From Octopus vulgaris (taxonomy: Eukaryota), in assembly GCA_951406725.2 (NCBI GenBank), contig OX597815.1, positions 70,494,001 to 70,558,000 of the forward strand: DNA of 64,000 bases, given 5' to 3'. Below, in pieces: positions 5,046 to 53,901 of this stretch. Made by a program: the position numbers and the translations under genes. Each line of letters opens with the position of its first letter. Positions within the stretch are counted from its first letter, which is position 1. The notes under the pieces were generated by a model. It saw only the letters and a list, made by a program, of their open reading frames with translations, was not told where the DNA came from and made no database searches.

Positions 5046-6840
5046 AAGACGTCGTACAGTATCCGACATCGTGATGTTGATTGAAGATATTGCGGACCAT
5101 AAGGACCTCAAACGGACAGTACGCAATGTGCGTGGAGTTCCAAGTAATGCCGAGTTTTGCAATACACCTATATTGTAGGGTATTTCTAACGTTTCCAGAA
5201 GTTTTGGGGTTTTTTTCAGGTTGGGTGGTATTGAACCCAATGCTCCGATAACAATAGGTACAACCTTTATGTTTCTCTCTCGTAGCTGTCACATCTTAGC
5301 GACCTCAATTCTCAGGTCTCCATATTTATCAATTTTTTCTCTTTCTTTCCTGATGATATGTTGATTTCCTGGCACTGCCACGTTGATTATTAGGCACTCT
5401 TGTTTGTCCCTCCTAAAGGTTTCTGTATCCGGCTTTCGGTGCTCTAACACCTTGTCTATATGGAAGTCAAAGTCCCAGAGGATTTTTGCCTTCCCCTTTT
5501 CGTCCATTACCTTTTCCGGTGTATGTTGGTATCAAGCACTCGATACCTCGTATCCATACTTTCGGCATATTAAGCCAGTGAAGGTTTTGGGTTACCTTGT
5601 CATATTTGCGCTTGCACTCTTTCTGCGCAAGACTTTCACAAGCACTAACAATGTGACTCACGCTTTCAGTTCTCTTCCTACACATTCTGCAGAGATTCGT
5701 TGCACTTGTGTGGTATATATCCCTTTTCACTGAGTTGGTATTCAATGCCTGATCCTGGGCAGCGATAATTAGGCTTTCAGCCACCTCTATGAGGCTTCTA
5801 GTCTTTTGAGATGTTAGTTTCACGGTGGAACTGACCATGTAATTCCATGCGGAGTAGATTTCTTCTTCCTCGTTGTCTATTCGTGATCAGAATTCATGAG
5901 CACTCTCAAGCCCATTTTTGGTAAATCCTTCTGCATTAGCAGCATACTGTAGCCAGCCGTGTTTGCTGTATACCAAATATTCTACCATGTTTCTTTTTTC
6001 ATTGTTGATGCACACCCTTACGCTAATCAGCCCACGTCCACCTTTGCACCTATTCATGTAGAGCCTGTGTACGTTGACCTTAGGGTGGAGGGCACCATGC
6101 ATTGTCATTGTTTTTCGATAGTGCGATCGAGTTGGTTAATCTCTGCTTGTGTCCATTTCAGGATGGGTGCACTGTAGCGGACTACAGCGACAGCTCATAT
6201 GTTGATGGCTGTCACAAGGTTCCTTGAGTTGAGTTTTGATTTCAAGAGAAGTTTGAGGCGCTTCAAATATACAGTAATAACTTGTCTTTTATTTCTCTGT
6301 GCAAGATATTGTCCATCTCCAGTATCCCAAGATAACTGTACCCACCATCATCCGGGTCTTCCATTCTCTCTCTATGCCCCTACAATCTGCTCTTTTCCAC
6401 CGTTTCAAAGTGAACACCGCACACTTCAAGACACTGAATTTCATCCTTATATCCTTGCTGAACATCTGTACCGTCTCAACCAGCCTCTCCATTTCAGGCT
6501 CTGTTTTTGCGAACAGTTTTAAATCATCTTTGAAGAGAGGGTGATTTAGACGAGGTTCATTCTTTCTCAGCTGATAGTGCGCGTTGACTTTGCGTAGGAC
6601 TACAAAAATTGGGATCAAGGCTATAACAAGTAACAAAGGTGAGTTTCCCTGGAAGATATCTCTTTTGATCGTTACCTCGGCTAAGTGCTGGTTGTTATAG
6701 AGAAGAGGGTTTTTTTTCCAACTAGGCATGTTGTTCTTAATTAGTGCACACATGTTCTTAGCTATTGCACACATGTCGAGTGTTTCCAAAATTCACAAAT
6801 ACGGCAACATGTCGTAAGCCTTTTAAAAGTATATCAAGAC
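5044..6840 (-). mobile_element. R4/Dong-like non-LTR retrotransposon (RT + CCHC + restriction-like endonuclease), 5'-truncated and frameshifted
   Basis: ORF fragments RDIFQGNSPLLLVIAL and FKDDLKLFAK (RT), CRMCRKRTESVSHIVSAC (CCHC), KILWDF..HRKPD..LIINVAVP..KIDKY (RLE); 3' end abuts (TAC)n at 4981-5043. Confidence 0.88.
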
Positions 6841-6909
6841 CATACAGGTGTATCCAAGTTTTTTTAGTACCGTTTATAGTTATCATCATCATCATCATCA
6901 TCATCATTA

Positions 6910-7562
6910 CTATTTTTTCCTTCTTCAAATTTTCTTCCGTTTCTCGCCGAGTGTTTTCCGTACACCTAGGGCAGAGAAGCTCATTCTATACATTCCCAGA
7001 TTACACACGCAAATTCTCAGGTAAAATATGTATTTAAAAATTAATAAATAAATAAATTCATGAATGGGTGTTGTTTTCACAGCGATAATGCTCTTCTAAG
7101 TACATGAGCTGTTCCAATTAATACGATTTTTTGCACTTCCTGTAGGGATGGTAAGCCTGGTATCATTTTCAAATAGGTTTCAGTACCTTTTTTTTTTTAT
7201 CATTCTTAGAGATCCTACAATCACTGGTACTGTAGTCGCCTTGAGATGCCACATTTTTTCAATTTCTATTAGCAAGTCTTTATATTTGCTGATCTTGTCA
7301 AATTCTTTCGCCGCTATATTGTGATCGCAAGGAATACTCATGTCAATTAATAAACACATCTGTTTTGTCTGATCTTTTATAATAATATTCAGTTTATTAG
7401 CTTTTATAGTTTTGTCGGTATGTACGGGGAAGTCCCATAGAATCGATACATTTTCTCCCTCAGTCACAGCTTCAGGATGGTGTTTATACCATTTGTCAGC
7501 GGTTTTGATTTTATAATGCCGACATATTGTCCAATGTAAATACTGGCCGACTCTGTCATGTC
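6910..7562 (-). mobile_element. R4/Dong-like LINE 3' fragment (RLE domain)
   Basis: RHDRVGQYLHW..ILWDFPVHTD..LLIDMSIP..KISKYKDL; bounded by (ATC)n and (TTG)n/(TTA)n. Confidence 0.85.
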
Positions 7563-7574
7563 TTGTTGTTGTTG

Positions 7575-7653
<79 letters not shown>

Positions 7654-7659
7654 ATACAA

Positions 7660-8335
7660 AACAAATTAGACTGTTGGAAAAGAAAAAAATCCTCAGATGC
7701 CAATAACATTCCTAAGTATCCTAGCTGTCCCTAATAACACTGTTTCCTGGAGCTGTACTAAACTTGGTTTTATGCCAATTTCCTCTATCCATCTGTTCTG
7801 ATCTTTAGGTATAGTTCCCAATGCACCTATAACTACTAGGATACATTTTACCCGCATTTTCCATAGTCCCTGTAATTCAATGTCTAGGTGCTGGTACTTT
7901 GCTATTTTTTCTATACCTCTGATATTGATTTTTTTCGTCATTTGGGACTGTAAAGTCAATTATCTAGAACTTTTTATTCTCTTTATCTACTATTACTAAA
8001 TCAGACCTTCTAGCTTCTGTTACTCTGTCAGTCTGAATGTTAAAGTCTCATAACATCTTGCATTTCTTAGTTTCCAGTACTTTGCTAGGTTTATATTCAT
8101 ACCATTTATTAATATGTTCAAATCGTAGCTTTCTACATAACTCCAAGTGGATTGCTCTCCCTAGATTGTCATGTCTTTTCTTGTATTCTTTCTGTGCCAT
8201 TATGCTACATTCACTTATATGAGTGAGTAACGCTTTCCGCTTTTGATTTGCATAACCTACGTTGGGAATCTACTTGGTTGTTGTCTACCTTGGCTTTTAT
8301 TCAATTAGTCATTAATGCTTGATCTTATGCAGCTA
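7660..8335 (-). mobile_element. R4/Dong-like LINE 3' fragment (RLE domain)
   Basis: EKIAKYQHLDIELQGLW..LVVIGALGTIP..VLLGTARILR; bounded on both sides by (TTA)n/(TTG)n. Confidence 0.8.
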
Positions 8336-10986: not shown

Positions 10987-13900
10987 GACTGACGTGATGT
11001 CACATCGGCTCCGCAGGTAATCGCTTTTTACGACCTTTTATTGCTTACATTTTGTTTCAATTTTTGCAGCTTTCGTTTGAGTGTGTTTTCAAGGGAGGAA
11101 CTGACCCCTAGGGGCAGTTTCAAACCTACTTACATTTCTATTTTCTTAGGTTTCCTTGCCATATTTCTAGACAAATGTAGCTAAGGGAAACCATGAGGCC
11201 GACTTCCCGCCTGCTGGAAAAAAACCCCGTTCCGTGTGAACGCACACAGGCCTTAGAAGGCACGAATGCATCTGCTACAATAACCACTGCCTCCACCACT
11301 GCTACCACCACCACCGCCATCACCGCAACCAACACGAATACCGATAACAATTTTGTCACGGCTTTGAAGCCAAAGAAAAAAATAATGCATTTTTCGAAGG
11401 AAGAACTACTTGCCTGTAAAGAAATTTTTACAAAAAATGAAGTCACCTGAAAATCTAAAAAAAAAAAAAAATCATTTGCAAAACACTCAACGCAAAAACA
11501 AAAAGTACATGAAATGGCCATTCAAGAAAATGTGGAAAATGTTTAAGGCCCATATAGGGCCTTTAAAGACTACATAACGAAGGGAAACAGGTTTGCGACG
11601 ATCGAAGATTCGACAGAGAAGAGCGAGCCAAGGACCTCTCCACAAGGTCCTTTCAACATAAAAATCTACTCATGATACCAATATATCTTGGTCGTAGGGT
11701 CACAAAAATAAAAAATAAAAAATGTGCATCCTGAAATTGAAATAAAATGACTCGTGTCTGCCATTTGCTATGACATCGAGGACGAAATCCATATATTGGA
11801 AATCGTTGTCCTGGACCAGCAAAACTGGATTGTCCAGGGAGTCGAAATCTTTGCCCAAATCGATCCAGCAAATTCCGAAAAAAATCCCCATCGAATCCAA
11901 TTGGTGGAGGATTCGAGCTTGCATGTAGCCGTCGAAGGCAGAAAGCCACGTTGCTACGATCGTGGTAGCAAAACACACTTAAAAACTAACTGGCCACTAG
12001 CACAGAAACAACAGCAACAACAACCCGGAGGGTAGGTTGGTCGTCTTGGATGTCGATGGCAGCAATGGGTGTGCTTTTCGAGTCATAGCAGTTTATGCAC
12101 CGTCCTTAACAGGTCGACCAGGTTTCTTTCGACGTCTAGAGGTTTTCCTGGGAACGTCTCGACCTTTACTCTTAGTGGGGGATTGGAACGCTACCCTGGA
12201 CACGCATCTAGACTACGTGGGCAGAGATAGTAATAAGAGGAGATGCAAATGCCTCAAAGACCTGCTCAGACGTTTCCAGATAGTATTTAGATAGAGTATT
12301 CGGTAGGACAGTGGATAAGGATAGTGTAGGTTGTTCACAATTCCATATAGTCAGCTACACAGACCACAAATTTGTGACCAGTACACTTGACTTAGATAAG
12401 ACACATAGGTAGGGTCCCGGTTACTGGAAGCTGAACGCGTCGTTCACGGCACGCCAGGCTAACAAGGAGCGGATTAGCACATTAGTTAAGAGAGCATTGA
12501 CGGGTGCCATCATTAACAACAGATGGTGGTATGCCCTAAAGTAAGCAATTAAAGCAGAATCGGTTAGGTAGAGCAAGGCTCTAGCATTAGACCGAAATAG
12601 AATAGAGGGAGACCTAATTAAGAAATTAGAAGAGGGACCAAGAACTGGCATCGTGTCCAACGTACTGGCAGTGAGGTTGGCCCTCGACTAACACTTCAAC
12701 GTCAAACACGAAGGATGCGTTGTCAGAGCTAGGATGCATGCTCTGAGGAACGAAGGAGTTGGAGCCGCCCGAGAGGCCCGAGTGGCGGAGGCGCAACGAG
12801 GCAACAAAGCCACCATTAGGTCTCTGATAGATGAGCAGGGATGCGAATTACTCGAGCCTGAAAGGATGTGTGATTATTGTCATATGCCAGACTTGTTTGG
12901 AGGATTCTTGACCTCTGTCTACTGCAACTGGCAGCAAAACGGGAGTATCCCCATCTTTGTTAAGCGAGGAGCAGTGGCACTGCTAAAGAAAGATCCAAAC
13001 AAGGGGAACGTCATAGATAATTTCAGGCCCATCACTCTGCTCAACGCAGACTTGAAGATTTTGGCCAAGGTGTTAACTCAGAGGTTGGCGCTTGTCATCG
13101 AGAAATTGGTCGACAAAGCGCAAACGTGCGCCGTGCCGGGTAGGAGTATCCATGACAACTTCCATCTGATGCGCTTCAGCATAGACAGGATAGTTAAAGA
13201 ACCTGGCATGGGTGGGGCACTGATCAATTTGAATCAATCAAAAGCTTTCGATTGGGTAGACCATCACTACTTGGAGGCTGTCCTTAGAGTGGCTGGTTTC
13301 GGTCCCATCTTCCGCGGTTGGATCGCCGCCTTATACAGCGGCATCCGCTCGGTAGTTCGTGTAAATGGACATCTATCCAGACCATTTAACATCATGCGTT
13401 CGGTTCTTCAACGATGCTTCCTCTCGTCGCTTCTGTATGTATTGACTCTTGAACCACCACTGCGGAAGCTGGCTACGCTGATGGGGCATCCCACGAGAGC
13501 TGGCATGCGGGAGGAGCGTATCTGCTTAGGCGGACGACGTTACCGTCATAGTGTCGAGTCACAAGCACATCGACCTGGTCAGCGAGACACTAAAAGAATA
13601 CGAAGCGGTAATGGGAAAAGCCAGTGGGCTTGCGGCTCAGCACCTGGAGAAGCAAGCCCATGCCGTCCAACAGCGTCTCCATCGTGGGACGCTGAACCGA
13701 CGGACCGGTTAAATTGCTCGGAGTCTGGTTCAGTCCGGACCTCCAAATGGAGAAAAACAGGGGCGAGATAACGACTAGGGTTGCCACTCTCACCCAGCAA
13801 TTGGCCGAGAGGAAGCTATCCCTAAAAGGTTTGAGGTGGCGAACGCGTACATCGCATCCGTCATCGATTACTGTCTGACCGTCGTACCTTGTCCCGACTC

Positions 13901-14872
13901 TACCATCACCAAACTGGAACGCATACTCTTCCACTTTTTGTGGAAGAGAAGCGTTCCGCTGGTTAGGCAAACCATTTACTGTCAACACCCGCTAAATGGT
14001 GGGCTAGGCATGCTATGGTTGATGATGCGCACACATGCGCTGAGACTGCGACATCTCCGGCGCTTCATAGACGACGGCGGACAGGTGTGGTCGAAGTTTG
14101 TGCGGTGCGCTTTCCCGCAGCTCGTCTCCTTGGCCGAACTGCTGTCGTGGATCAAACAGAGACTGAGGCTAGGCGAATGGCACCGCGAGTGTCGCGTTGT
14201 TCTCAAGCAACTCTGCCGTCTGGAACCAAACTTGTACGACTTCATTACGACAAAGGCGTTCTATAGAGGATTAGTGTAGGAGAGATGCGACGACGTTCTC
14301 GGGCAGTATCTGGGCATCGACGAGGAACATCTGACCCGCCTATTCAGGACAACTTTCGAACCGGGACCTATGGACAATCACCAAAGATCCCTGGCCTGGC
14401 AGTGCTATCGAGAAGTATTACTCGTTCGACATAAGCTCTACGGGCACAGTTCGAGACACACCGGACTGACTTGCCCGAGATGCGGTGAGAGCGATGAAAC
14501 CGTTCTGCAAGCACTCGTGCAGTGTCCAACCATTTCGGACCTGTGGGCTTATGCTGAACGGCTACTGTCACGTGTGGGACGAGTCCGCCTGTCAGCCGAG
14601 TCTATCGTGACAATTGCTCCGCCACCTTCCTTCAACCGGGAAGGCAAGGCAGTCTTCATCGTACTGGTGGCCATGGTGAAAGAATGTGTGAGGTGGACTC
14701 GAACGAAATGTTTAGAGACAAACACTTACCTCTCTGACCAACCGCTCAACTTTTTTAAGTACCACTTGAAAAGGAAGCTGAGAATGGAGAGGCAAGTTTT
14801 GTCTCGTGAAAGTTTCTATAAAAGCTGGGCGGTGTGTGTGAGTGACAAAACTACTTTGAGCAAGATCCTGTA

Positions 14873-14904
<32 letters not shown>

Positions 14905-28809: not shown

Positions 28810-29180
28810 ACTCATTGGACTGCAGTCATGATGGGGCACTGCCTTGACGTGTTTATTTCGAACAAATCGATCTCAGTACTTAAATTATTTTAGAATTTGG
28901 TACTCATGCTTATCTTTCTTTTTTGCTGAATCGTTAAGTTACGGGCTCGTAAACGAACCAACACCGGGTGTCAAGCGGTGGTGGGGACAAACACGTGTGT
29001 GTGTATGTGTGTACGTATACGACGGGCTTCCATAGAGTTTTCATCTACCAGATTCACTCACAAAGTATTGGTCGGGCCGGGACGAGAGCAGCAGACGGTT
29101 GCTTAAGATGCCGCGTAGTGGGACTGAACCCGAAACCACGTAATTGCAAAGCGAGTTTCTTAACCACATTGCCATGCCTG
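28810..29180 (-). mobile_element. SINE, second family (CORE-like)
   Basis: Reverse complement of the 29577-30010 copy. Confidence 0.75.
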
Positions 29181-40059: not shown

Positions 40060-40900
40060 TATATATGTCATTATTCAGTTTATTTCAAGATTTCTTGCCA
40101 ATAAAAAACCGGTTTCTAACCTAGATCCAAGGTTCCTTCACTGGAATTTCAACATTAACAATAGGGCATTTTTGTCTGTCTGTCTGTCTGTCTGTATGTA
40201 TGTATGTATGTATGTATGTATGTATGTGCAGATTTGTATGCTTTATGTATGTATTCTCATGCATATAGTTACATATCTAGACATGCTCATATATATTTAA
40301 ATGATAAACTTCTGGAAAGTTTTACAGATTTTTATAGTTCCAGTGATGGATTGGATTTGTAGTTTTCGAATAAGCTTTCTCCTATCTGGTTTTGAGAAGC
40401 CTTATTTCTCAAGGTTAGTATTTAGGCAGTATGTTACATATCCCAGTGGCCAAATAATTACAGCTATAAACCCGAACTTGTAATCTGGATAGAGTAACTG
40501 CAGATTTTTCAATAGCTCAGCATAGGTGTTCTCTTTTTCACTGATCTTCAGATTTATGTTAACATCCGCTGGGCAGCTAATTTCCACAACTCTGCACAGT
40601 TTCTCTTCTCTATCCCAAATCATTATATCAGGTCTATTGTGCTTACATTTTATTGAGGTCTTCACATGTATATTACACCAGTATTCCTTTTTATTATGAG
40701 TGGCTATGACTTCTACCATATTGCGGGGTTTCATTTCGTTGTCCTCGGGATTATCCTTCCGATGGATCTCATTATAGAGTGTCCTAGGTACAACGTCATG
40801 TCTCATCGGTAGAGAATACCGTGATGACATTTTCGGACAACTGCTTATGATGTGGGTGATACCTTCAGTGTGAACTCCACAAAGTCTGCATCGGTTGTTA
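40060..40900 (-). mobile_element. R4-like LINE 3' part (CCHC + RLE), 5' end abutting (TACA)n
   Basis: CRLCGVHTEGITHIISSC..MRHD..HNRPDIMIWD..VVEISCP..KENTY. Confidence 0.88.
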
Positions 40901-41271
40901 CATGTATGTATGTATGTATGTATGTATGTATGTATGTATGTATGTATGTATGTATGTATGCATGCATGCATGCATGCATGCATGCATGTATGTATGTATG
41001 TATGTATGTATGTCTGTCTGTCTGTATGTATGTATGTATGTATGTATGTATGTATGTATGTATGTATGTATGTATGTATGTATGTATGCATGTATGTATA
41101 TGTATGTATGTATATGTTTTTCTTTTTCTTCATCTGCTTTCTTTACTAGTTCTTTTCTGTAGAAAAGTGCAAGCTCGAAAGGTCAAAATCTCTTCCACTT
41201 TTTCAGAGCGTCAAAATAATACACCCTGTTCTCTCACCTATTTCTGTCTTTTCGTATTGTACAATTTCGAA

Positions 41272-42360: not shown

Positions 42361-42372
42361 TTAATTGATTTA

Positions 42373-43142
42373 TCTCTCTCTATATAAACGGCAGTTTGTC
42401 TGTGCGTGTTTCTGTGTGTCTGTTTTCTCGTACCCTCACTCTGACCACGGCTTTCAACCGATTCTGATGAAACTTGACACACACATAGCCCAATGTCATA
42501 ATTCAAAACTAACGCAGCGAAAATTTTGAAAAGTTCCCCCAGTTCTGAAAAAAAATCGATAAATTCGACATGGGGTCGAGAATGAGAAACCCAAACCACA
42601 GACCGTCTAGGGGACGCAACTCCACCTGTTTTAACTCTCAAAAAAAATTTACCATCATTTTTTTCCCATTTTTTTGCTATTTTTTGGCTATAACTCTCTA
42701 AAAATGCTTTATAGTTATTTCCCTTACAAACCTGAGCAACGCCGGGCGATACTGCTATCTCTCTCTATATAAACGGCAGTTTGTCTGTGCGTGTTTCTGT
42801 GTGTCTGTTTTCTCGTACCCTCACTCTGACCACGGCTTTCAACCGATTCTGATGAAACTTGACACACACATAGCCCAATGTCATAATTCAAAACTAACGC
42901 AGCGAAAATTTTGAAAAGTTCTCCCAGTTCTGAAAAAATCGATAAATTCGACATGGGGTCGAGAATGAGAAACCCAAACCACAGACCGTCTAGGGGACGC
43001 AACTCCACCTGTTTTAACTCTCAAAAAAAATTTACCATCATTTTTTTTTCCATTTTTTTGCTATTTTTTGGCTATAACTCTCTAAAAATGCTTTATAGTT
43101 ATTTCCCTTACAAACCTGAGCAACGCCGGGCGATACTGCTAG
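42373..43142 (+). mobile_element. Two head-to-tail non-autonomous Helitrons (42373-42757 and 42758-43142)
   Basis: Near-identical 385-bp units; A|TC start; 3' CCTGAGCAACGCCGGG hairpin followed by CTAG|T; 3' end shared with 37376-38007. Confidence 0.85.
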
Positions 43143-43672
43143 TATACAAATAAGGCGGCTAGTTGGCAGAATCTTTAGCACGTAGGACAAAATATTTCAC
43201 AACATTTCTTAATTCAAATTACGCCAAGGTCGACTATATTTTCCATTCTTTTGGGAGTCGATAAAATAAGTACTAGCCAAGTTGACTGACCTTCTCTTGC
43301 AGAATTGTTGGCTTTGTGCCAATAATAGAAAGAATTATTTAAATAATTAATTTATATATATAATAGGGAGTGTGTATTTAAGAAACTCGCTTTGCAATCA
43401 CATAATTTCGGGTTTAGTTCCATTGCGCAGCACTTTGAGTAAGTATCTTTTATTTTTGCCCCGGTCTAACCAATGCCTAGTGAGTAAAACTGTGGAAGCA
43501 CGTCGTACATTTTATATATATGTATATTCCGGTTTCTTTTGGGTAACCTCTGGTATATATATATATATATATATTGATAAAACGGTAAGATAACAAAAGA
43601 AAGAAAGAGACCTCAATATTATGTAAATAGAGGAAATTTATCTATACAATATGTTACATTACTCGGTAGTCA

Positions 43673-43735
43673 AGATAAAACTCTGAGTTTCAGATGCCGA
43701 AGTGGAAATCCACAACACCATCTCTTCGGTTATCT
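43673..43735 (-). ncRNA. Hammerhead-like motif of PLE copy A
   Basis: Exact reverse complement of 46924-46986. Confidence 0.6.
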
Positions 43736-43930
43736 GGCTATTTGAAAACGTTATGAAAAAATACCGTTAAAAATGAAGGGAAATTACTCTGTTATAACTC
43801 TGCTTTGCCTGCGTACTTATACATCGCTCGCATTTTTCGTCATAAAAATTATATAAAAATACATAAAAAATATATAAAAATATATAAAAATATATAAAAT
43901 CTTCTTGGGACATAACACAGAAAGCATGTT

Positions 43931-45490
43931 CTATCCGTTTTCTTTAGGGGACCAAAAACGTAACAGAAATTTAGTCACATGTGGGCATGATCCGAAAAGT
44001 TCTGTCCTTGTATTTAGACATGTGGTAGGGTCTAAGCTGCTTTTCCAGATAAGCCATCTCTCCATGTCGCATAAACCGCACCTTCCGCTGCCGTTAGTAT
44101 AGGGCTTACATCTGGCCAAAATCTTCCATTGTATGTTATAATCGACACCTTTATCTCTTAAAGACCAAATATGATTGGATAATTGTGTCGCTTTTCTTTT
44201 GTTCCAGTGCCTAAAGCTCAAAGTGTGGTTATTGAACCTGGTCTTGAAATTACCCTCTGTCAGGCCCACGTATTTCTTCGTCAAAACGGTGTCTTTAGTG
44301 GTTATAGAGTTTACGGTAGCCTCATATATGATGGTCTTGGACATGCAAGCTCCATTTAGCGGGCACAATTCTTTATTCCTGCATGAACAGCTGTTTTCTT
44401 CTTGTGTTTTTTGTATGTTATGATTGATTATGTTTTTAAAATTGGTAGTTGAACTAAAACTAATTTTTAAATTGTGTCTATTGAAGAGTTTCCTATAAGC
44501 ATGGTTAACTGGAAAATGTCTATCTATCAGTGCTAGGAAATATTTACCTATATTGAAGGCCACCTCGGGTGAGTAAGGGGGCGTAAACCAGATGACCTTC
44601 CTATTTCTATTATTCCTTTTCCTTATTGTTGGGCTGGTGATAGGTGTATATTTTATTTTTTCGCTAAAACCACTATCTTTTAAAGCTTTATTATAAACTG
44701 GGGCAACGCTATTGAAGATGTCCTCATTAGATGAGAGGCTAGAAATCCTCTTACTAATATTTTTAACTAAATTTTTGAATACTATAGGGGGATGGCATGA
44801 ACCTACATTAATATAACTTAGTCTATCATTGGGCTTCCTATAAGGCTTATAAATATTATTATTAAGATCTAAGGAAACGTCTAAGAAATTGACAACCGTC
44901 AGGTTAGTGTCTATAGTTATACTAAGTCCGAAGTGTTTCATTAACTGGATAATATCCTTCCTAAAACGATCTTGTGCTGGTCCATTTGTATTAGCTGTTA
45001 AGGCGAGGGCATCATCTTTGTAGATGGCGAAATGTACGTTAGGGAATGTCTTACTGAAGGTATCTAGGAGAAAGAGTCCAATTAGATCACAGATGCCTGC
45101 CCCATCATATGAACCCATGCTCACATCGAAAGCGCCCTCCGTGTCGGTGTTTTTTACCCACTTTGCATTCTCACTGAAAAGTAATGTCTTTCTAGCATGG
45201 AAGATTATATCCTTATCATTGGTACTAATTTCTATGAAGTCACTAGCGAAGATTAGGGCTTTATCTAGCAGTTCTTTAGAGATAGAGGCATAAAAATCAA
45301 CAATATCGAATTGTGTAAACCTCGCTTTTTTCTTATTCTTAATAGCTTTAAACCAGTCTACGACTTCTATACTATTGGACCATTGCACTAGCCTAGTATC
45401 GCTCTTAATTTTCGTATTTATTTTATCTAAAATTTCTTTGCTAATAATCCCTAGTTCTGACTTGGCTGGGTTGATAAGCCTACATTTAGG
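43931..45490 (-). pseudogene. 5'-truncated PLE RT-GIY-YIG ORF (copy A)
   Basis: Open from PKCRLINPAKSELG to WSPKENG; the N-terminus listed in the ORF track is a junction chimera. Confidence 0.9.
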
Positions 45491-45534
45491 GTAAAAAGTG
45501 GGTAAAAAACACCGACACGGAGGGCGCTTTCGAT

Positions 45535-46728
45535 GTGAGCATGGGTTCATATGATGGGGCAGGCATCTGTGATCTAATTGGACTCTTTCTCCTAGATACC
45601 TTCAGTAAGACATTCCCTAACGTACATTTCGCCATCTACAAAGATGATGCCCTCGCCTTAACAGCTAATACAAATGGACCAGCACAAGATCGTTTTAGGA
45701 AGGATATTATCCAGTTAATGAAACACTTCGGACTTAGTATAACTATAGACACTAACCTGACGGTTGTCAATTTCTTAGACGTTTCCTTAGATCTTAATAA
45801 TAATATTTATAAGCCTTATAGGAAGCCCAATGATAGACTAAGTTATATTAATGTAGGTTCATGCCATCCCCCTATAGTATTCAAAAATTTAGTTAAAAAT
45901 ATTAGTAAGAGGATTTCTAGCCTCTCATCTAATGAGGACATCTTCAATAGCGTTGCCCCAGTTTATAATAAAGCTTTAAAAGATAGTGGTTTTAGCGAAA
46001 AAATAAAATATACACCTATCACCAGCCCAACAATAAGGAAAAGGAATAATAGAAATAGGAAGGTCATCTGGTTTACGCCCCCTTACTCACCCGAGGTGGC
46101 CTTCAATATAGGTAAATATTTCCTAGCACTGATAGATAGACATTTTCCAGTTAACCATGCTTATAGGAAACTCTTCAATAGACACAATTTAAAAATTAGT
46201 TTTAGTTCAACTACCAATTTTAAAAACATAATCAATCATAACATACAAAAAACACAAGAAGAAAACAGCTGTTCATGCAGGAATAAAGAATTGTGCCCGC
46301 TAAATGGAGCTTGCATGTCCAAGACCATCATATATGAGGCTACCGTAAACTCTATAACCACTAAAGACACCGTTTTGACGAAGAAATACGTGGGCCTGAC
46401 AGAGGGTAATTTCAAGACCAGGTTCAATAACCACACTTTGAGCTTTAGGCACTGGAACAAAAGAAAAGCGACACAATTATCCAATCATATTTGGTCTTTA
46501 AGAGATAAAGGTGTCGATTATAACATACAATGGAAGATTTTGGCCAGATGTAAGCCCTATACTAACGGCAGCGGAAGGTGCGGTTTATGCGACATGGAGA
46601 GATGGCTTATCTGGAAAAGCAGCTTAGACCCTACCACATGTCTAAATACAAGGACAGAACTTTTCGGATCATGCCCACATGTGACTAAATTTCTGTTACG
46701 TTTTTGGTCCCCTAAAGAAAACGGATAG
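45535..46728 (+). pseudogene. 5'-truncated PLE ORF (copy B)
   Basis: Begins inside RT motif B (SMGSYDGAG); lacks motif A. Confidence 0.9.
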
Positions 46729-46923
46729 AACATGCTTTCTGTGTTATGTCCCAAGAAGATTTTATATATTTTTATATATTTTTATATATTTTTTATGTAT
46801 TTTTATATAATTTTTATGACGAAAAATGCGAGCGATGTATAAGTACGCAGGCAAAGCAGAGTTATAACAGAGTAATTTCCCTTCATTTTTAACGGTATTT
46901 TTTCATAACGTTTTCAAATAGCC

Positions 46924-46986
46924 AGATAACCGAAGAGATGGTGTTGTGGATTTCCACTTCGGCATCTGAAACTCAGAGTTTTATCT
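46924..46986 (+). ncRNA. Hammerhead-like motif of PLE copy B
   Basis: AGATAA-CCGAAGA-GATG..(GTGGA/TCCAC)..CATC-tGAAA-CTCAGAG-TT-TTATCT: stem I AGATAA/TTATCT, stem II GATG/CATC, near-palindromic stem III ACTCAGAGT, GUU triplet. Confidence 0.6.
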
Positions 46987-47191
46987 TGACTACCGAGTAA
47001 TGTAACATATTGTATAGATAAATTTCCTCTATTTACATAATATTGAGGTCTCTTTCTTTCTTTTGTTATCTTACCGTTTTATCAATAAATCACCTCCCGG
47101 ACGACGTTATTCTCAACTAAGAGCTAATACGACCTTTTTGGGATTATCGCCTAACATCGGTTGAGGACTCTCACAAACAAAAGAATCTAAT

Positions 47192-49316
47192 ATGGACGCA
47201 TATCACATAGATTATTCTATGAAAAATATACCGATCCCATCAAAGGATTTTTACTCTAAGAAACTTCTGCAAAAAATTACTGATGTAATTAAGCGTATGA
47301 GATGGAAGGCTTTCTTTTTTGACACAGAAGCGAACACCAAGGAAAACATTTGCTATCGGATAAAATCCAAAAAATTCCCTCCTAGGATTAAAGGCTTGGA
47401 AGATTTCGAAGCGGACCTGCTGAAGATCATGAGCAAAATAAAGTTTCGTAAGTCTTTTAACAATTTCCAACATAAATTGAAGAAAGATATTGATCATATA
47501 AAAGCTCCAAGAAAAAAAGCACTTTTTTCGGATAAAACCAAGAACTTATACCTGGTAGATAACAGCAAATACACACAACTCTTACACAACAGCATCATTA
47601 ATAATTATACTAAAGCTAGGGCACAGACATATAACGAAATTAATAAAGAAGCTAGCGTCATCGCCGCTAAACTTAAATTAGATAAAAAAATAGAAACCCT
47701 CCCCAAAAAGAGGCCTTTATTACTATTAAAGACCACAAAGAAAACTTCCTTTCCAATCCTAAATGTAGGCTTATCAACCCAGCCAAGTCAGAACTAGGGA
47801 TTATTAGCAAAGAAATTTTAGATAAAATAAATACGAAAATTAAGAGCGATACTAGGCTAGTGCAATGGTCCAATAGTATAGAAGTCGTAGACTGGTTTAA
47901 AGCTATTAAGAATAAGAAAAAAGCGAGGTTTACACAATTCGATATTGTTGATTTTTATGCCTCTATCTCTAAAGAACTGCTAGATAAAGCCCTAATCTTC
48001 GCTAGTGACTTCATAGAAATTAGTACCAATGATAAGGATATAATCTTCCATGCTAGAAAGACATTACTTTTCAGTGAGAATGCAAAGTGGGTAAAAAACA
48101 CCGACACGGAGGGCGCTTTCGATGTGAGCATGGGTTCATATGATGGGGCAGGCATCTGTGATCTAATTGGACTCTTTCTCCTAGATACCTTCAGTAAGAC
48201 ATTCCCTAACGTACATTTCGCCATCTACAAAGATGATGCCCTCGCCTTAACAGCTAATACAAATGGACCAGCACAAGATCGTTTTAGGAAGGATATTATC
48301 CAGTTAATGAAACACTTCGGACTTAGTATAACTATAGACACTAACCTGACGGTTGTCAATTTCTTAGACGTTTCCTTAGATCTTAATAATAATATTTATA
48401 AGCCTTATAGGAAGCCCAATGATAGACTAAGTTATATTAATGTAGGTTCATGCCATCCCCCTATAGTATTCAAAAATTTAGTTAAAAATATTAGTAAGAG
48501 GATTTCTAGCCTCTCATCTAATGAGGACATCTTCAATAGCGTTGCCCCAGTTTATAATAAAGCTTTAAAAGATAGTGGTTTTAGCGAAAAATAAAATATA
48601 CACCTATCACCAGCCCAACAATAAGGAAAAGGAATAATAGAAATAGGAAGGTCATCTGGTTTACGCCCCCTTACTCACCCGAGGTGGCCTTCAATATAGG
48701 TAAATATTTCCTAGCACTGATAGATAGACATTTTCCAGTTAACCATGCTTATAGGAAACTCTTCAATAGACACAATTTAAAAATTAGTTTTAGTTCAACT
48801 ACCAATTTTAAAAACATAATCAATCATAACATACAAAAAACACAAGAAGAAAACAGCTGTTCATGCAGGAATAAAGAATTGTGCCCGCTAAATGGAGCTT
48901 GCATGTCCAAGACCATCATATATGAGGCTACCGTAAACTCTATAACCACTAAAGACACCGTTTTGACGAAGAAATACGTGGGCCTGACAGAGGGTAATTT
49001 CAAGACCAGGTTCAATAACCACACTTTGAGCTTTAGGCACTGGAACAAAAGAAAAGCGACACAATTATCCAATCATATTTGGTCTTTAAGAGATAAAGGT
49101 GTCGATTATAACATACAATGGAAGATTTTGGCCAGATGTAAGCCCTATACTAACGGCAGCGGAAGGTGCGGTTTATGCGACATGGAGAGATGGCTTATCT
49201 GGAAAAGCAGCTTAGACCCTACCACATGTCTAAATACAAGGACAGAACTTTTCGGATCATGCCCACATGTGACTAAATTTCTGTTACGTTTTTGGTCCCC
49301 TAAAGAAAACGGATAG
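47192..49316 (+). CDS. PLE reverse transcriptase-GIY-YIG polyprotein, copy C (two net homopolymer frameshifts, near 47705 and 48588)
   Basis: ORFs 47192-47797, 47860-48594 and 48684-49316 join into one protein nearly identical to copy D. Confidence 0.8.
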
Positions 49317-49511
49317 AACATGCTTTCTGTGTTATGTCCCAAGAAGATTTTATATATTTTTATATATTTTTATATATTTTTTATGTATTTTTATATAATT
49401 TTTATGACGAAAAATGCGAGCGATGTATAAGTACGCAGGCAAAGCAGAGTTATAACAGAGTAATTTCCCTTCATTTTTAACGGTATTTTTTCATAACGTT
49501 TTCAAATAGCC

Positions 49512-49574
49512 AGATAACCGAAGAGATGGTGTTGTGGATTTCCACTTCGGCATCTGAAACTCAGAGTTTTATCT
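49512..49574 (+). ncRNA. Hammerhead-like motif of PLE copy C
   Basis: Identical to 46924-46986. Confidence 0.6.
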
Positions 49575-49779
49575 TGACTACCGAGTAATGTAACATATTG
49601 TATAGATAAATTTCCTCTATTTACATAATATTGAGGTCTCTTTCTTTCTTTTGTTATCTTACCGTTTTATCAATAAATCACCTCCCGGACGACGTTATTC
49701 TCAACTAAGAGCTAATACGACCTTTTTGGGATTATCGCCTAACATCGGTTGAGGACTCTCACAAACAAAAGAATCTAAT

Positions 49780-51905
49780 ATGGACGCATATCACATAGAT
49801 TATTCTATGAAAAATATACCGATCCCATCAAAGGATTTTTACTCTAAGAAACTTCTGCAAAAAATTACTGATGTAATTAAGCGTATGAGATGGAAGGCTT
49901 TCTTTTTTGACACAGAAGCGAACACCAAGGAAAACATTTGCTATCGGATAAAATCCAAAAAATTCCCTCCTAGGATTAAAGGCTTGGAAGATTTCGAAGC
50001 GGACCTGCTGAAGATCATGAGCAAAATAAAGTTTCGTAAGTCTTTTAACAATTTCCAACATAAATTGAAGAAAGATATTGATCATATAAAAAGCTCCAAG
50101 AAAAAAGCACTTTTTTCGGATAAAACCAAGAACTTATACCTGGTAGATAACAGCAAATACACACAACTCTTACACAACAGCATCATTAATAATTATACTA
50201 AAGCTAGGGCACAGACATATAACGAAATTAATAAAGAAGCTAGCGTCATCGCCGCTAAACTTAAATTAGATAAAAAAATAGAAACCCTCCCCAAAAAGAG
50301 GCCTTTATTACTATTAAAGACCACAAAGAAAACTTCCTTTCCAATCCTAAATGTAGGCTTATCAACCCAGCCAAGTCAGAACTAGGGATTATTAGCAAAG
50401 AAATTTTAGATAAAATAAATACGAAAATTAAGAGCGATACTAGGCTAGTGCAATGGTCCAATAGTATAGAAGTCGTAGACTGGTTTAAAGCTATTAAGAA
50501 TAAGAAAAAAGCGAGGTTTACACAATTCGATATTGTTGATTTTTATGCCTCTATCTCTAAAGAACTGCTAGATAAAGCCCTAATCTTCGCTAGTGACTTC
50601 ATAGAAATTAGTACCAATGATAAGGATATAATCTTCCATGCTAGAAAGACATTACTTTTCAGTGAGAATGCAAAGTGGGTAAAAAACACCGACACGGAGG
50701 GCGCTTTCGATGTGAGCATGGGTTCATATGATGGGGCAGGCATCTGTGATCTAATTGGACTCTTTCTCCTAGATACCTTCAGTAAGACATTCCCTAACGT
50801 ACATTTCGCCATCTACAAAGATGATGCCCTCGCCTTAACAGCTAATACAAATGGACCAGCACAAGATCGTTTTAGGAAGGATATTATCCAGTTAATGAAA
50901 CACTTCGGACTTAGTATAACTATAGACACTAACCTGACGGTTGTCAATTTCTTAGACGTTTCCTTAGATCTTAATAATAATATTTATAAGCCTTATAGGA
51001 AGCCCAATGATAGACTAAGTTATATTAATGTAGGTTCATGCCATCCCCCTATAGTATTCAAAAATTTAGTTAAAAATATTAGTAAGAGGATTTCTAGCCT
51101 CTCATCTAATGAGGACATCTTCAATAGCGTTGCCCCAGTTTATAATAAAGCTTTAAAAGATAGTGGTTTTAGCGAAAAAATAAAATATACACCTATCACC
51201 AGCCCAACAATAAGGAAAAGGAATAATAGAAATAGGAAGGTCATCTGGTTTACGCCCCCTTACTCACCCGAGGTGGCCTTCAATATAGGTAAATATTTCC
51301 TAGCACTGATAGATAGACATTTTCCAGTTAACCATGCTTATAGGAAACTCTTCAATAGACACAATTTAAAAATTAGTTTTAGTTCAACTACCAATTTTAA
51401 AAACATAATCAATCATAACATACAAAAAACACAAGAAGAAAACAGCTGTTCATGCAGGAATAAAGAATTGTGCCCGCTAAATGGAGCTTGCATGTCCAAG
51501 ACCATCATATATGAGGCTACCGTAAACTCTATAACCACTAAAGACACCGTTTTGACGAAGAAATACGTGGGCCTGACAGAGGGTAATTTCAAGACCAGGT
51601 TCAATAACCACACTTTGAGCTTTAGGCACTGGAACAAAAGAAAAGCGACACAATTATCCAATCATATTTGGTCTTTAAGAGATAAAGGTGTCGATTATAA
51701 CATACAATGGAAGATTTTGGCCAGATGTAAGCCCTATACTAACGGCAGCGGAAGGTGCGGTTTATGCGACATGGAGAGATGGCTTATCTGGAAAAGCAGC
51801 TTAGACCCTACCACATGTCTAAATACAAGGACAGAACTTTTCGGATCATGCCCACATGTGACTAAATTTCTGTTACGTTTTTGGTCCCCTAAAGAAAACG
51901 GATAG
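49780..51905 (+). CDS. PLE reverse transcriptase-GIY-YIG endonuclease (about 708 aa after one -1 frame correction near 50293), copy D
   Basis: N-terminal YSMKNIPIPSK..KRMRWKAFFF; ITIKDHKENF..PKCRLINPAKSELG; RT FDIVDFYASI, MGSYDGAG, IYKDD, NFLDV; linker CSCRNKELCPLNGAC; GIY-YIG IIY..YVGLTEGNFKTRFNNH, CGLCDMER, LNTRTEL, CPH. Confidence 0.88.
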
Positions 51906-52100
51906 AACATGCTTTCTGTGTTATGTCCCAAGAAGATTTTATATATTTTTATATATTTTTATATATTTTTTATGTATTTTTATATAATTTTTATGACGAA
52001 AAATGCGAGCGATGTATAAGTACGCAGGCAAAGCAGAGTTATAACAGAGTAATTTCCCTTCATTTTTAACGGTATTTTTTCATAACGTTTTCAAATAGCC

Positions 52101-52163
52101 AGATAACCGAAGAGATGGTGTTGTGGATTTCCACTTCGGCATCTGAAACTCAGAGTTTTATCT
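52101..52163 (+). ncRNA. Hammerhead-like motif of PLE copy D
   Basis: Identical to 46924-46986. Confidence 0.6.
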
Positions 52164-52192
52164 TGACTACCGAGTAATGTAACATATTGTAT

Positions 52193-52249
<57 letters not shown>

Positions 52250-52251
<2 letters not shown>

Positions 52252-53442
52252 AGAGGTTACCCAAAAGAAACCGGAATTTTACAATATCATCTTATTCACT
52301 TAGTTTTACATGTTTACACTTTTATCGCCTTCAAAGTATTCTCCATTTGAAGCAATGCACCGGACCAAACGCGTTTTCCGTTGTTCGAAGCTGTCCTGCA
52401 ACTTTTGCGAAGTGATGCCTTTTAACGCCTCTGTTGTTTTTTTCTTCACCTCTTTCACATCTACAAAACGTTTTCATTTGAGGATTTTTTCGTTTGGGGG
52501 GAACCAAAAAAAGTTGCAGGGAGAAAGATCGGGTGAAGAGGGAAGAGTGGATAAGCAGGATCATGCCATTTTTGGTCAAAAACTGTTTCACACTCAGAGC
52601 AGTGTGCGCAGGTGCATTGTCGTGATGAGACCACCGCTTTCCACTTTGCCGCAGGTCGTTGCATTTTCGTTTCATCGAGTCCCGCAGACGCTTCAGAACT
52701 TCTAAGTAAAATGTATGGTGAACAGTTTGACCAAGAGGAACAAATTCTGCGCAGACAATTCCTTTCGCATCGATGAAACAAACCAGCATCGTCTTGACAT
52801 TGGACTTCACTTGACGCGTGGTGACATTGAATTCTTCCATTGACTTGAACGCATTCAGTCTTGACTGCTTTTGATCTTCCAAGAGCAAGCGAGGCACAAA
52901 TTTTGCTGCAACTCTCTTCATTCGCAATTCCTCGCTCAAAATTCATTGGTAGAAGCTCTAGAACACATCAGTCATATCAACGAGTTTTTCAATTGTTCGG
53001 TGACGGTCCTCCGAGATAACCTCACGAATTATCGTGATGTCCAGGAGGTCAGCAGTCACCCTAAACGAGGTTGGTCTTCAAGCGACCAGGGATCATTCCT
53101 AAAGCGTGAAAACCACTCGTAAACTTATGTTTGGCTCATGTGTTTTGCGTCCTTGTAAGCTGTTTGATGCATGGCAACTGTTTTGGTCGCCGTTTTCTCC
53201 GCAGAAAACAGAATTTCACGGAAGTACATTGTTCCTTCGTTTCGGCTATCGCAGAAATCGACAAACAGGGAAGAGCACTGCAAAACAAAGATGCACCACG
53301 TGACAGTACGACCTCAGTGGACGACGCGGGTCGGCATACTGATGTCTGAGGATCGCATTAAGTGGCTTCTAGCGCCGGAAGCCTGAACTACGACGGGATG
53401 TCCCTCAGTGAAGGTTTTCGATTATTTTTGGGTACCCCCTCG
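52250..53442 (-). mobile_element. Mariner DNA transposon with a decayed, internally deleted transposase
   Basis: Imperfect TIRs CCAGAGGTTACCCAAAAGAAACC and (reverse complement) CGAGGGGGTACCCAAAAATAATC; TA on both sides; KRVAAKFVPRLL and HHDNAPAHTA motifs. Confidence 0.9.
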
Positions 53443-53901
53443 TATATATATACTAGTGGGAGATATGAAAATTCTACAGAACGAAAAAAATTAAGAGAAG
53501 CAATTTAAGAAAGAAAAGAAGATTTGCCTTTTTAGTTTCATTTTGCTAAGCTATATCACATCCAGTCACAATAATATATCATATGATTTTAAAATTTCCC
53601 TCTGCTAAGCACTTTATATTTTTCTCTTTCTCTCTACCCATCCAACGGACATGTTAACCATATGATTCCCCTCTTCATGACTTTAACATTTCTTTCTTTC
53701 TCTTCACATCTCACTTTCACTAACCACATGAGTGACAGCATAATGCATCGGGTGGTTATCTGCTCTTCTCAGTCACTATCACATTCCCTCTTCCATTCTC
53801 TCTCACTCCATATCCTTCTCCCCTCAAACTATATTATTCTTCTACAAACAGGTAGAGGAATAACAAATTTGTTCAATAAACAAATACTTTTCACTATCAA
53901 C

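What the first reader, a model, noticed from the sequence alone, without database searches (positions are those of the whole stretch)
43526..43572. Inverted, not direct, 30-bp target duplication bracketing the PLE array
Seen: 43526-43555 (ATTCCGGTTTCTTTTGGGTAACCTCTGGTA) is the exact reverse complement of 52248-52277, which is the TA plus left TIR of the old mariner just right of the array. It does not match the mariner's diverged right TIR exactly. Both outward-pointing PLE 3' ends are therefore followed by (AT)n plus the same host 30-mer, and the left copy joins abruptly to a SINE tail. Inference: both cDNA arms were primed from the same side of the target (strand switch or snap-back), which would be a footprint of the poorly understood PLE integration mechanism rather than an ordinary TSD.
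Basis: partly seen in the sequence, partly recalled or inferred. Interest (0 to 1): 0.8.

Follow-up and report, generated by a model that had tools for sequence, protein, structure and literature searches.

The report
Fold-back scar around Penelope-like insertion
A 28-base piece of host DNA stands in mirror image on both sides of a young head-to-head Penelope-like retrotransposon array; it is likely a fold-back repair scar at a TA repeat that likely formed before the element landed in its centre, though one similar site in another animal keeps open a link to how these elements insert.

Summary
In detail: 43526-43555 is the exact reverse complement of 52248-52277. The truly duplicated part is 26-28 bp. 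Contigs from two different samples cross the junction with the SINE-like repeat without a difference, so it is not a read artefact. The array is a Hydra-type Penelope-like element in the canonical layout: partial tandem, inverted 5'-truncated arm, (TA)n target, and a 67-bp tail on the left end only. That tail means the arms were likely primed separately, so same-side priming is not needed. The duplication fits known fold-back repair of a break in self-complementary TA, as described in yeast, in fly and beside L1 insertions. Its timing is unresolved: the empty allele could not be read. The arms show 0 substitutions in 6,032 bases while the junction is shared between samples, which leans towards an older scar. 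One more bracketed site turned up in another animal (1 of 11 two-ended sites; 0 of 242 TA tracts were palindromic), a weak hint of a link to these elements. Real and unusual, but built from known parts.

The parts
43380..43525 (+). Left host flank: dispersed SINE-like repeat (label recalled) ending in an impure TA tail
   Evidence: 73% identity over 115 bases to 29049-29163; identical in contigs of X1 and X15
43526..43553 (-). Inverted copy of the mariner's near terminal repeat (28 bp; the first 2 bases may be host microhomology)
   Evidence: exact reverse complement of 52250-52277
43554..43574 (.). Left (TA)n tract, 21 nt
43569..43635 (-). 67-bp tail, present at the left 3' end and inside the tandem, absent at the right 3' end
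   Evidence: a one-sided tail of about 60 bp also in related insertions L082, L088, L183
43569..45490 (-). Inverted 5'-truncated arm (unit positions 668-2588)
45491..45494 (.). Head-to-head junction: 4 extra bases that form a short local repeat of the start of the right arm
45495..47090 (+). 5'-truncated first tandem copy (unit positions 994-2588)
47091..49678 (+). Full 2,588-bp unit
49512..49574 (+). Type I hammerhead-like motif in the pseudo-LTR (repeated in each arm); C in place of the usual U in the first core motif
   Evidence: pattern scan with closing stem I and stem II; fold z -2.25; no hammerhead hit in Rfam
49679..52200 (+). Last tandem copy, without tail
49780..51905 (+). RT plus C-terminal GIY-YIG reading frame of the last copy, broken once near 50300 (same break in the copy before it)
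52195..52249 (.). Right (TA)n tract, 55 nt
52250..52277 (+). Native near terminal repeat of the old mariner: the template of the mirror copy
   Evidence: it continues into the mariner body
52250..53442 (-). Decayed Tc1/mariner element, far terminal repeat at 53415-53444
   Evidence: PF01359 E 5e-7; terminal repeats differ at 8 of 30

Best explanation
A 28-bp mirror copy of the mariner end sits left of a head-to-head Penelope-like array; it is likely a fold-back repair scar at a broken TA tract, likely formed before the array inserted into the TA at its centre by ordinary priming from both strands. Inferred steps: (1) a break fell in the TA tract between the SINE-like tail and the mariner, possibly an abortive cut by the same TA-targeting GIY-YIG nuclease family; (2) the mariner-side 3' overhang, being self-complementary, folded back and was extended 28 bases; (3) the new end unwound and joined the left flank through a 2-base AT overlap, leaving arm-(TA)n-arm; (4) later the element's protein nicked both strands of the TA, primed one cDNA at the tail start site and one at the tail-less site, and the two truncated 5' ends were joined. 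Shown: the geometry, the one-sided tail, the identity of the arms, and the junction in other samples. Not shown: the order of events and the enzymes.
For: The geometry and size fit fold-back inverted duplications at breaks: mostly about 5-34 bp with 0-5 bp overlap at the far join (PMC11724301), and snap-back within 30 bp often primed by TA/AT (PMC5728401). The tail on one end only marks two reverse-transcription start sites, and a related protein nicks and extends both strands (PMC11167929), so the array needs no special priming. A young related head-to-head insertion has an ordinary direct 9-bp duplication (L082), and 10 of 11 related two-ended sites lack an inverted flank. The arms show 0 substitutions in 6,032 aligned bases, yet the mirror-copy junction is in contigs of two samples from different studies, and weakly in a third. 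If the insertion were as old as an allele at frequency 0.2-0.8, about 2-15 substitutions would be expected at diversity 0.0005-0.002. The variant terminal repeat looks private to the locus: depth over it in X1 is explained by one contig.
Against: The empty allele was not seen; the samples that share the junction may also carry the array. X1 may be the assembly's own source, leaving one firm and one weak independent sample. The age argument assumes an unknown diversity (0 differences in 396 bases allows very low values), a mean allele age, and no gene conversion between arms. Empty TA palindromes, which this model predicts, were found in 0 of 53 window tracts and 0 of 189 tracts in G001. The one other case found (L092) also holds Penelope-like insertions at its centre, and there the flank copies are not clearly older than the element arms (2 of 190 against 0 of 239 substitutions, p 0.2). 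The X1 and X15 contigs run 30 letters past 43545, whereas a plain 31-mer graph holding both copies ends after 10.
Confidence: 0.46

Rival explanations
1. Coupled event: the element's nuclease broke the TA tract, the mariner-side end folded back and joined the left flank, and the TA centre was nicked again and primed on both strands within the same insertion. The mirror copy is then an occasional by-product of PLE integration, as for L1.
For: L1 insertions with inverted duplications of target DNA, one primed by a 2-bp TA/AT hairpin, are described (10.1101/2024.12.14.628481). A second bracketed site, L092, has about 190 bp of flank mirrored around a TA nest with two Penelope-like insertions. One of 8-10 two-ended sites against 0 of 189-242 TA tracts gives Fisher p about 0.04-0.05 (after the fact, one positive).
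Against: Identical arms against a junction shared by samples of different years and studies. It needs an extra nick inside the hairpin. The final sequence is the same as in the best explanation, so nothing in the window favours it directly.
Confidence: 0.28
2. One reading: both cDNAs were primed from the mariner-side strand. Either a first primer-plus-cDNA was clipped 28 bases back and moved to the left end, or the cDNA snapped back and copied through the element end into the flank.
For: Both 3' ends do face the same flank. cDNA snap-back copying of itself or of nearby target DNA is seen for R2 (PMC11371274). The mirror copy begins at an ATT, the motif most often cut by a PLE of another clade (PMC11167929); ATT is common in AT-rich DNA, so this is weak.
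Against: Copy-through would reproduce the right end, which lacks the 67-bp tail that the left end has. The clip-and-move version needs a further cut, a refill and a second priming. Of 11 related two-ended sites, 10 show no such flank.
Confidence: 0.1
3. The common allele holds only one copy of the 28-mer (a small inversion, or a mariner end since altered), and the window is a recombinant or an assembly join through the TA tracts.
For: The contig end seen in X1 and X15 (30 letters past 43545) is what a simulation gives when only the left copy exists and the TA is long. The element junctions themselves were not verified by reads.
Against: Graph simplification can remove such branches (own knowledge). 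X15 shows extra depth over the 28-mer, about that of one more single-copy contig, as expected if the right copy is present. The right copy sits in its native place in the mariner. The array has a fully canonical structure.
Confidence: 0.11
4. The left 28-mer is the leftover end of a separate mariner copy, unrelated to any duplication.
For: Its length is about that of a terminal repeat, and mariners also target TA.
Against: It equals the neighbouring repeat at all positions, although that repeat differs from the element's other end at 8 of 30. No high-copy signal over it in X1, X15 or X4 (a 20-letter match may be too short to be laid).
Confidence: 0.05

Closest known systems
Hydra-clade Penelope-like elements (Craig et al., PMC8557442)
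   Same: Under 3 kb, C-terminal GIY-YIG, RWK, DKT, CxCX5C, CxxC and CxH motifs, (TA)n target, partial tandem plus inverted 5'-truncated copy, tail on one end.
   Different: The tail is 67 bp rather than 30-40; the hammerhead core has one non-standard letter; an inverted host flank is not mentioned in the passages read.
Canonical PLE insertions with inverted pseudo-LTRs (Arkhipova et al., PMC3846280)
   Same: Head-to-head arrangement and optional tail.
   Different: Those carry direct 8-10 bp duplications or none; here any direct duplication is hidden in TA and a mirror copy of one flank is added.
Local fold-back inverted duplications at breaks (yeast PMC11724301; fly SD-MMEJ snap-back PMC5728401)
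   Same: Short inverted copy of break-adjacent DNA, hairpin priming, 2-base overlap at the far join, size under about 34 bp.
   Different: Here a retroelement array lies at the hairpin centre; the break and the polymerase are inferred.
L1 insertions with inverted duplication of target DNA (10.1101/2024.12.14.628481, Fig. 4D,E as described in text)
   Same: Target-primed insertion accompanied by a fold-back duplication, in one case primed by TA/AT.
   Different: In L1 the duplication lies beside the element on one end; here the two copies bracket the element, each next to a 3' end.
R2 snap-back 5' junctions (PMC11371274)
   Same: Inverted copying of cDNA or nearby target during insertion.
   Different: Those are primed by the cDNA end at the 5' junction; here the left arm has its own tail-bearing start.

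Membership tests
Hydra-clade PLE | Single RT frame with C-terminal GIY-YIG nuclease | tested here: met
   YKDD and a GIY-YIG-like motif; PF01541 E 0.009, below Pfam's cut-off; 1,187 relatives, the 120 listed at 44-53% identity. The frame is broken once in both full copies.
Hydra-clade PLE | RWK motif and DKG changed to DKT | tested here: met
   definition
Hydra-clade PLE | CxCX5C linker; CxxC and CxH near the end | tested here: met
   cysteines invariant or nearly so in the alignment
Hydra-clade PLE | Absence of the CCHH motif | not tested
   no alignment to CCHH-bearing references was made
Hydra-clade PLE | Length under 3 kb, insertion into (TA)n | tested here: met
   2,588-bp unit, TA at both ends
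Hydra-clade PLE | Canonical hammerhead ribozyme in the pseudo-LTR | tested here: inconclusive
   hammerhead layout found by pattern with one core change; no Rfam hammerhead hit
Hydra-clade PLE | Phylogenetic placement with named Hydra families | not tested
   no named reference sequences were on hand
Ordinary target-site duplication | Direct repeat of target DNA on both sides | tested here: not met
   the 28-mer is inverted; no direct repeat at the junctions beyond TA
Fold-back (snap-back) templated insertion | Insert is an inverted copy of break-adjacent DNA within about 30 bp | tested here: met
   28 bp directly next to the TA tract
Fold-back (snap-back) templated insertion | Inverted primer repeat and at least 1 bp overlap at the far join | tested here: met
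   TA tract is self-complementary; AT overlap with the host tail. Both are easy to meet by chance in TA-rich DNA.
Fold-back (snap-back) templated insertion | Known pre-break allele and polymerase dependence | not testable with these tools
   no genome held; TA stretch skipped by the read tool
   1 of 11 related two-ended sites; none of this exact family could be paired
   cannot tell filled from empty

The most novel reading that the evidence does not exclude
TA-targeting Penelope-like elements leave a recurrent minority footprint of their own: during insertion one target end folds back on its TA, and the mirror copy becomes the primer for the second cDNA, so that both 3' ends face the same host flank. 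The window (28 bp) and L092 (about 190 bp) would be two cases in unrelated animals, and a genome-wide count would give a first handle on how the second PLE cDNA is primed in vivo.
Probability: 0.3. Interest if true: 0.68.

Novelty: new variant of a known kind. Interest (0 to 1): 0.42.

Why it matters
How Penelope-like elements make their tandem, inverted and tailed insertions is an open question (PMC8557442, PMC11167929). If mirror-image flanks arise during insertion, they record a hairpin intermediate at the target and can be counted in any long-read genome. If they are older scars, they show that TA tracts targeted by these elements are repeatedly broken and repaired by fold-back, which adds short palindromes to the genome. 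One genotyping experiment separates the two. For annotation, such sites would mislead searches for direct duplications and for element boundaries.

Tried and rejected
No whole genome was held, so other insertions of this exact family could not be collected. A scan for the 26-base core in metagenome contigs found 0 matches. Raw-read run X23 gave 0 laid reads although the element end is abundant in the contig runs, so it is no test. Word shares of the runs (0.95, 0.83, 0.74 for X1, X15, X4) were not used to infer presence of the array, because contigs drop variants in high-copy families. The contig-end position was simulated but does not separate filled from palindromic-empty alleles. Rfam gave only AT-repeat chance hits. 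Of 101 related loci, 6 were flagged with inverted arms bracketing the frame, and most were too short to show both flanks. Two of the 11 two-ended sites counted (L180 8940-11169, L092 12886-13202) are PLE-like only by a loose hammerhead pattern, several are nested in other repeats, and the two insertions in the L092 nest were counted as one site. Rejected: a fold-back read artefact for the 30-mer (junction in other samples); an ordinary direct duplication; copy-through of the right end (tail). Earlier-notes look-ups returned nothing for this genome.

Full report
OBSERVATION. Bases 43526-43555 are the exact reverse complement of 52248-52277; the match stops at once outward and runs on inward only through TA. 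The mariner's far terminal repeat differs at 8 of 30 positions. The chance of the 26-base core at a fixed place is about 1e-16. The last TA belongs to the tract and the first AT may belong to the host tail, so 26-28 bp are duplicated.

ANATOMY. From left to right: a SINE-like repeat (label recalled; 73% like 29049-29163), the mirror 28-mer, 21 nt of TA, an inverted 5'-truncated arm (43569-45490), a 4-base junction that repeats nearby letters, a truncated copy (45495-47090), a full 2,588-bp unit, a last copy ending at 52200, 55 nt of TA, and a decayed mariner (PF01359). Against the full unit the other three arms show no substitution in 6,032 aligned bases, only single-base differences in A runs. 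Both full copies share one frame break. [quoted passage not shown] A hammerhead-like motif lies in the pseudo-LTR, with no Rfam hit. The repeat landscape looks like an octopus genome; this is recalled, and no call names the organism.

THE TAIL. The left 3' end has 67 bases that the right end lacks. A tail on one end only is canonical (PMC8557442 passages; PMC3846280) and corresponds to two reverse-transcription start sites; the protein tested there nicks and extends both strands (PMC11167929). Related insertions fetched here also show one-sided tails of about 60 bp. The left arm is therefore likely its own primed cDNA, not a copy of the right end running into the flank. It leaves the array explained by ordinary two-strand priming.

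READS. One lay of four runs on 43150-43950 (runs). Contigs of X1 (sample S1, study P1) and X15 (S9, P8) cover 43150-43545 with 0 differences, 20 aligned letters past the junction; each has 30 more letters in the skipped TA stretch. The X4 contig (S3, P3) ends 6 letters past the junction. X23 gave nothing. So the mirror copy is real and is in at least one sample that cannot be the assembly's source if X1 is. The element junctions were skipped, so filled and empty alleles cannot be told apart. One oddity: a plain 31-mer graph with both copies ends 10 letters past 43545, while a graph with only the left copy ends after 30, as observed. Branch removal during contig building could explain it (own knowledge), and X15 has extra depth over the 28-mer of about one more single-copy contig. 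I keep a one-copy allele or a mis-join as a minor rival.

GENERALITY. No genome was held. I fetched 101 related loci and 1.2 Mb of handle G001, an assembly labelled bacterial that holds animal-like contigs (the stretches were chosen partly by repeat content and partly at even steps). L082 is a young head-to-head relative with a tail and an ordinary direct 9-bp duplication. L092 is a second bracketed site: about 190 bp of host sequence, including a short TA-flanked repeat and 28 bases beyond it, is mirrored around a TA nest that holds a Hydra-type element and a small inverted pseudo-LTR piece. Its two copies differ by 2 substitutions outside the TA and one 31-bp local duplication. The 28 other matches in G001 are at most 75% alike where they cover most of the query, so the copy is likely locus-derived. 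Of 11 two-ended sites (10 in G001, plus L083; the L092 nest counted once; two sites only loosely PLE-like), 1 has an inverted flank. Of 189 TA tracts in G001 and 53 in the window, 0 have inverted arms of 16 bp or more. Fisher p is about 0.04-0.05, after the fact and on one positive. The pattern is thus not the rule, but may be enriched at these elements.

MECHANISM. A break in TA leaves a self-complementary 3' end. Folding back, copying 28 bases and joining the other end by a 2-base overlap gives arm-(TA)n-arm. This matches yeast fold-back duplications, mostly about 5-34 bp with a median 2-bp overlap (PMC11724301 abstract and section 15), and fly snap-back repair (PMC5728401 passages). Inverted duplications beside L1 insertions are also described (10.1101/2024.12.14.628481 passages and section 9). 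The product is the same whether the array came minutes or ages later. For an older scar: identical arms against a junction shared by samples; about 2-15 substitutions would be expected if the array were as old as an allele at frequency 0.2-0.8 and diversity were 0.0005-0.002. This rests on few samples and assumed diversity. For a coupled event: no empty palindromes in 242 tracts, and the second case also holds such elements. I put the older scar at 0.46, the coupled event at 0.28, literal same-side priming at 0.10, a one-copy allele or mis-join at 0.11, and a separate mariner remnant at 0.05.

WHAT IS KNOWN. Papers seen: PMC3846280 parts 1-4 of 5; PMC11167929 parts 1-2 of 4; PMC8557442 passages and section 11; PMC11371274 passages; PMC13282606 passages, nothing relevant; others as cited above. 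No supplements were read. Five searches aimed at inverted flank duplication at such insertions listed no paper whose title or abstract start describes it for PLEs, and the passages read do not mention it. The library lacks most subscription papers, including much of the early Penelope literature, so absence from print is not established. Two earlier AI notes describe head-to-head nuclease-less PLE pairs inside long target duplications; I did not test them.

VERDICT. A real, unusual site made of known parts: a canonical Hydra-type insertion and a fold-back duplication. The bracketing geometry and a second case make it worth one genotyping experiment. Interest 0.42; new variant of a known kind.

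Noticed in passing
L092:7706-12265 (G001:C575): Second site where about 190 bp of host flank is mirrored around a TA nest holding two Penelope-like insertions.
   Followed up: partly
L082:3557-5923: Young head-to-head Hydra-type insertion with 758-bp identical arms, a tail of about 60 bp on one end and a direct 9-bp duplication; a clean control.
   Followed up: yes
window 47700-47720 and 50290-50310: Both full copies share the same frame break in an A run: either a defective source copy moved in trans or a systematic sequencing error.
   Followed up: no
window 43582-43850: Summed contig depth over the element's 3' end reaches about 1e5-2e6, against about 5-40 in the unique flank, which suggests a very abundant pseudo-LTR family; not a copy number. 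A strand-switch joint 43632/43738 occurs in all three contig runs.
   Followed up: no
window 49512-49574: Hammerhead-like motif with C in place of the usual U in the first core motif and a stem III closed by a one-base loop, which would need a dimer to fold (recalled for PLE ribozymes).
   Followed up: partly
L081-L101: Several assemblies filed as bacterial genomes hold animal-type Penelope-like elements; G001 has many repeat-rich animal-like contigs, likely host contamination.
   Followed up: partly
L085:8338-14326 (G002:C27, near the end of a 492-kb contig): A cluster of Hydra-type fragments sits at the end of a long contig of a bacterial assembly, next to terminator-like sequence; likely a chimeric join, not examined.
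   Followed up: no
window 42371-43141: Two tandem copies of a 385-bp repeat ending in a short hairpin and CTAG, Helitron-like (recalled).
   Followed up: no
window 6289-7665 (-), 12692-14873 (+), 40402-41142 (-): Decayed reading frames that look like non-LTR retrotransposon remnants (by eye).
   Followed up: no
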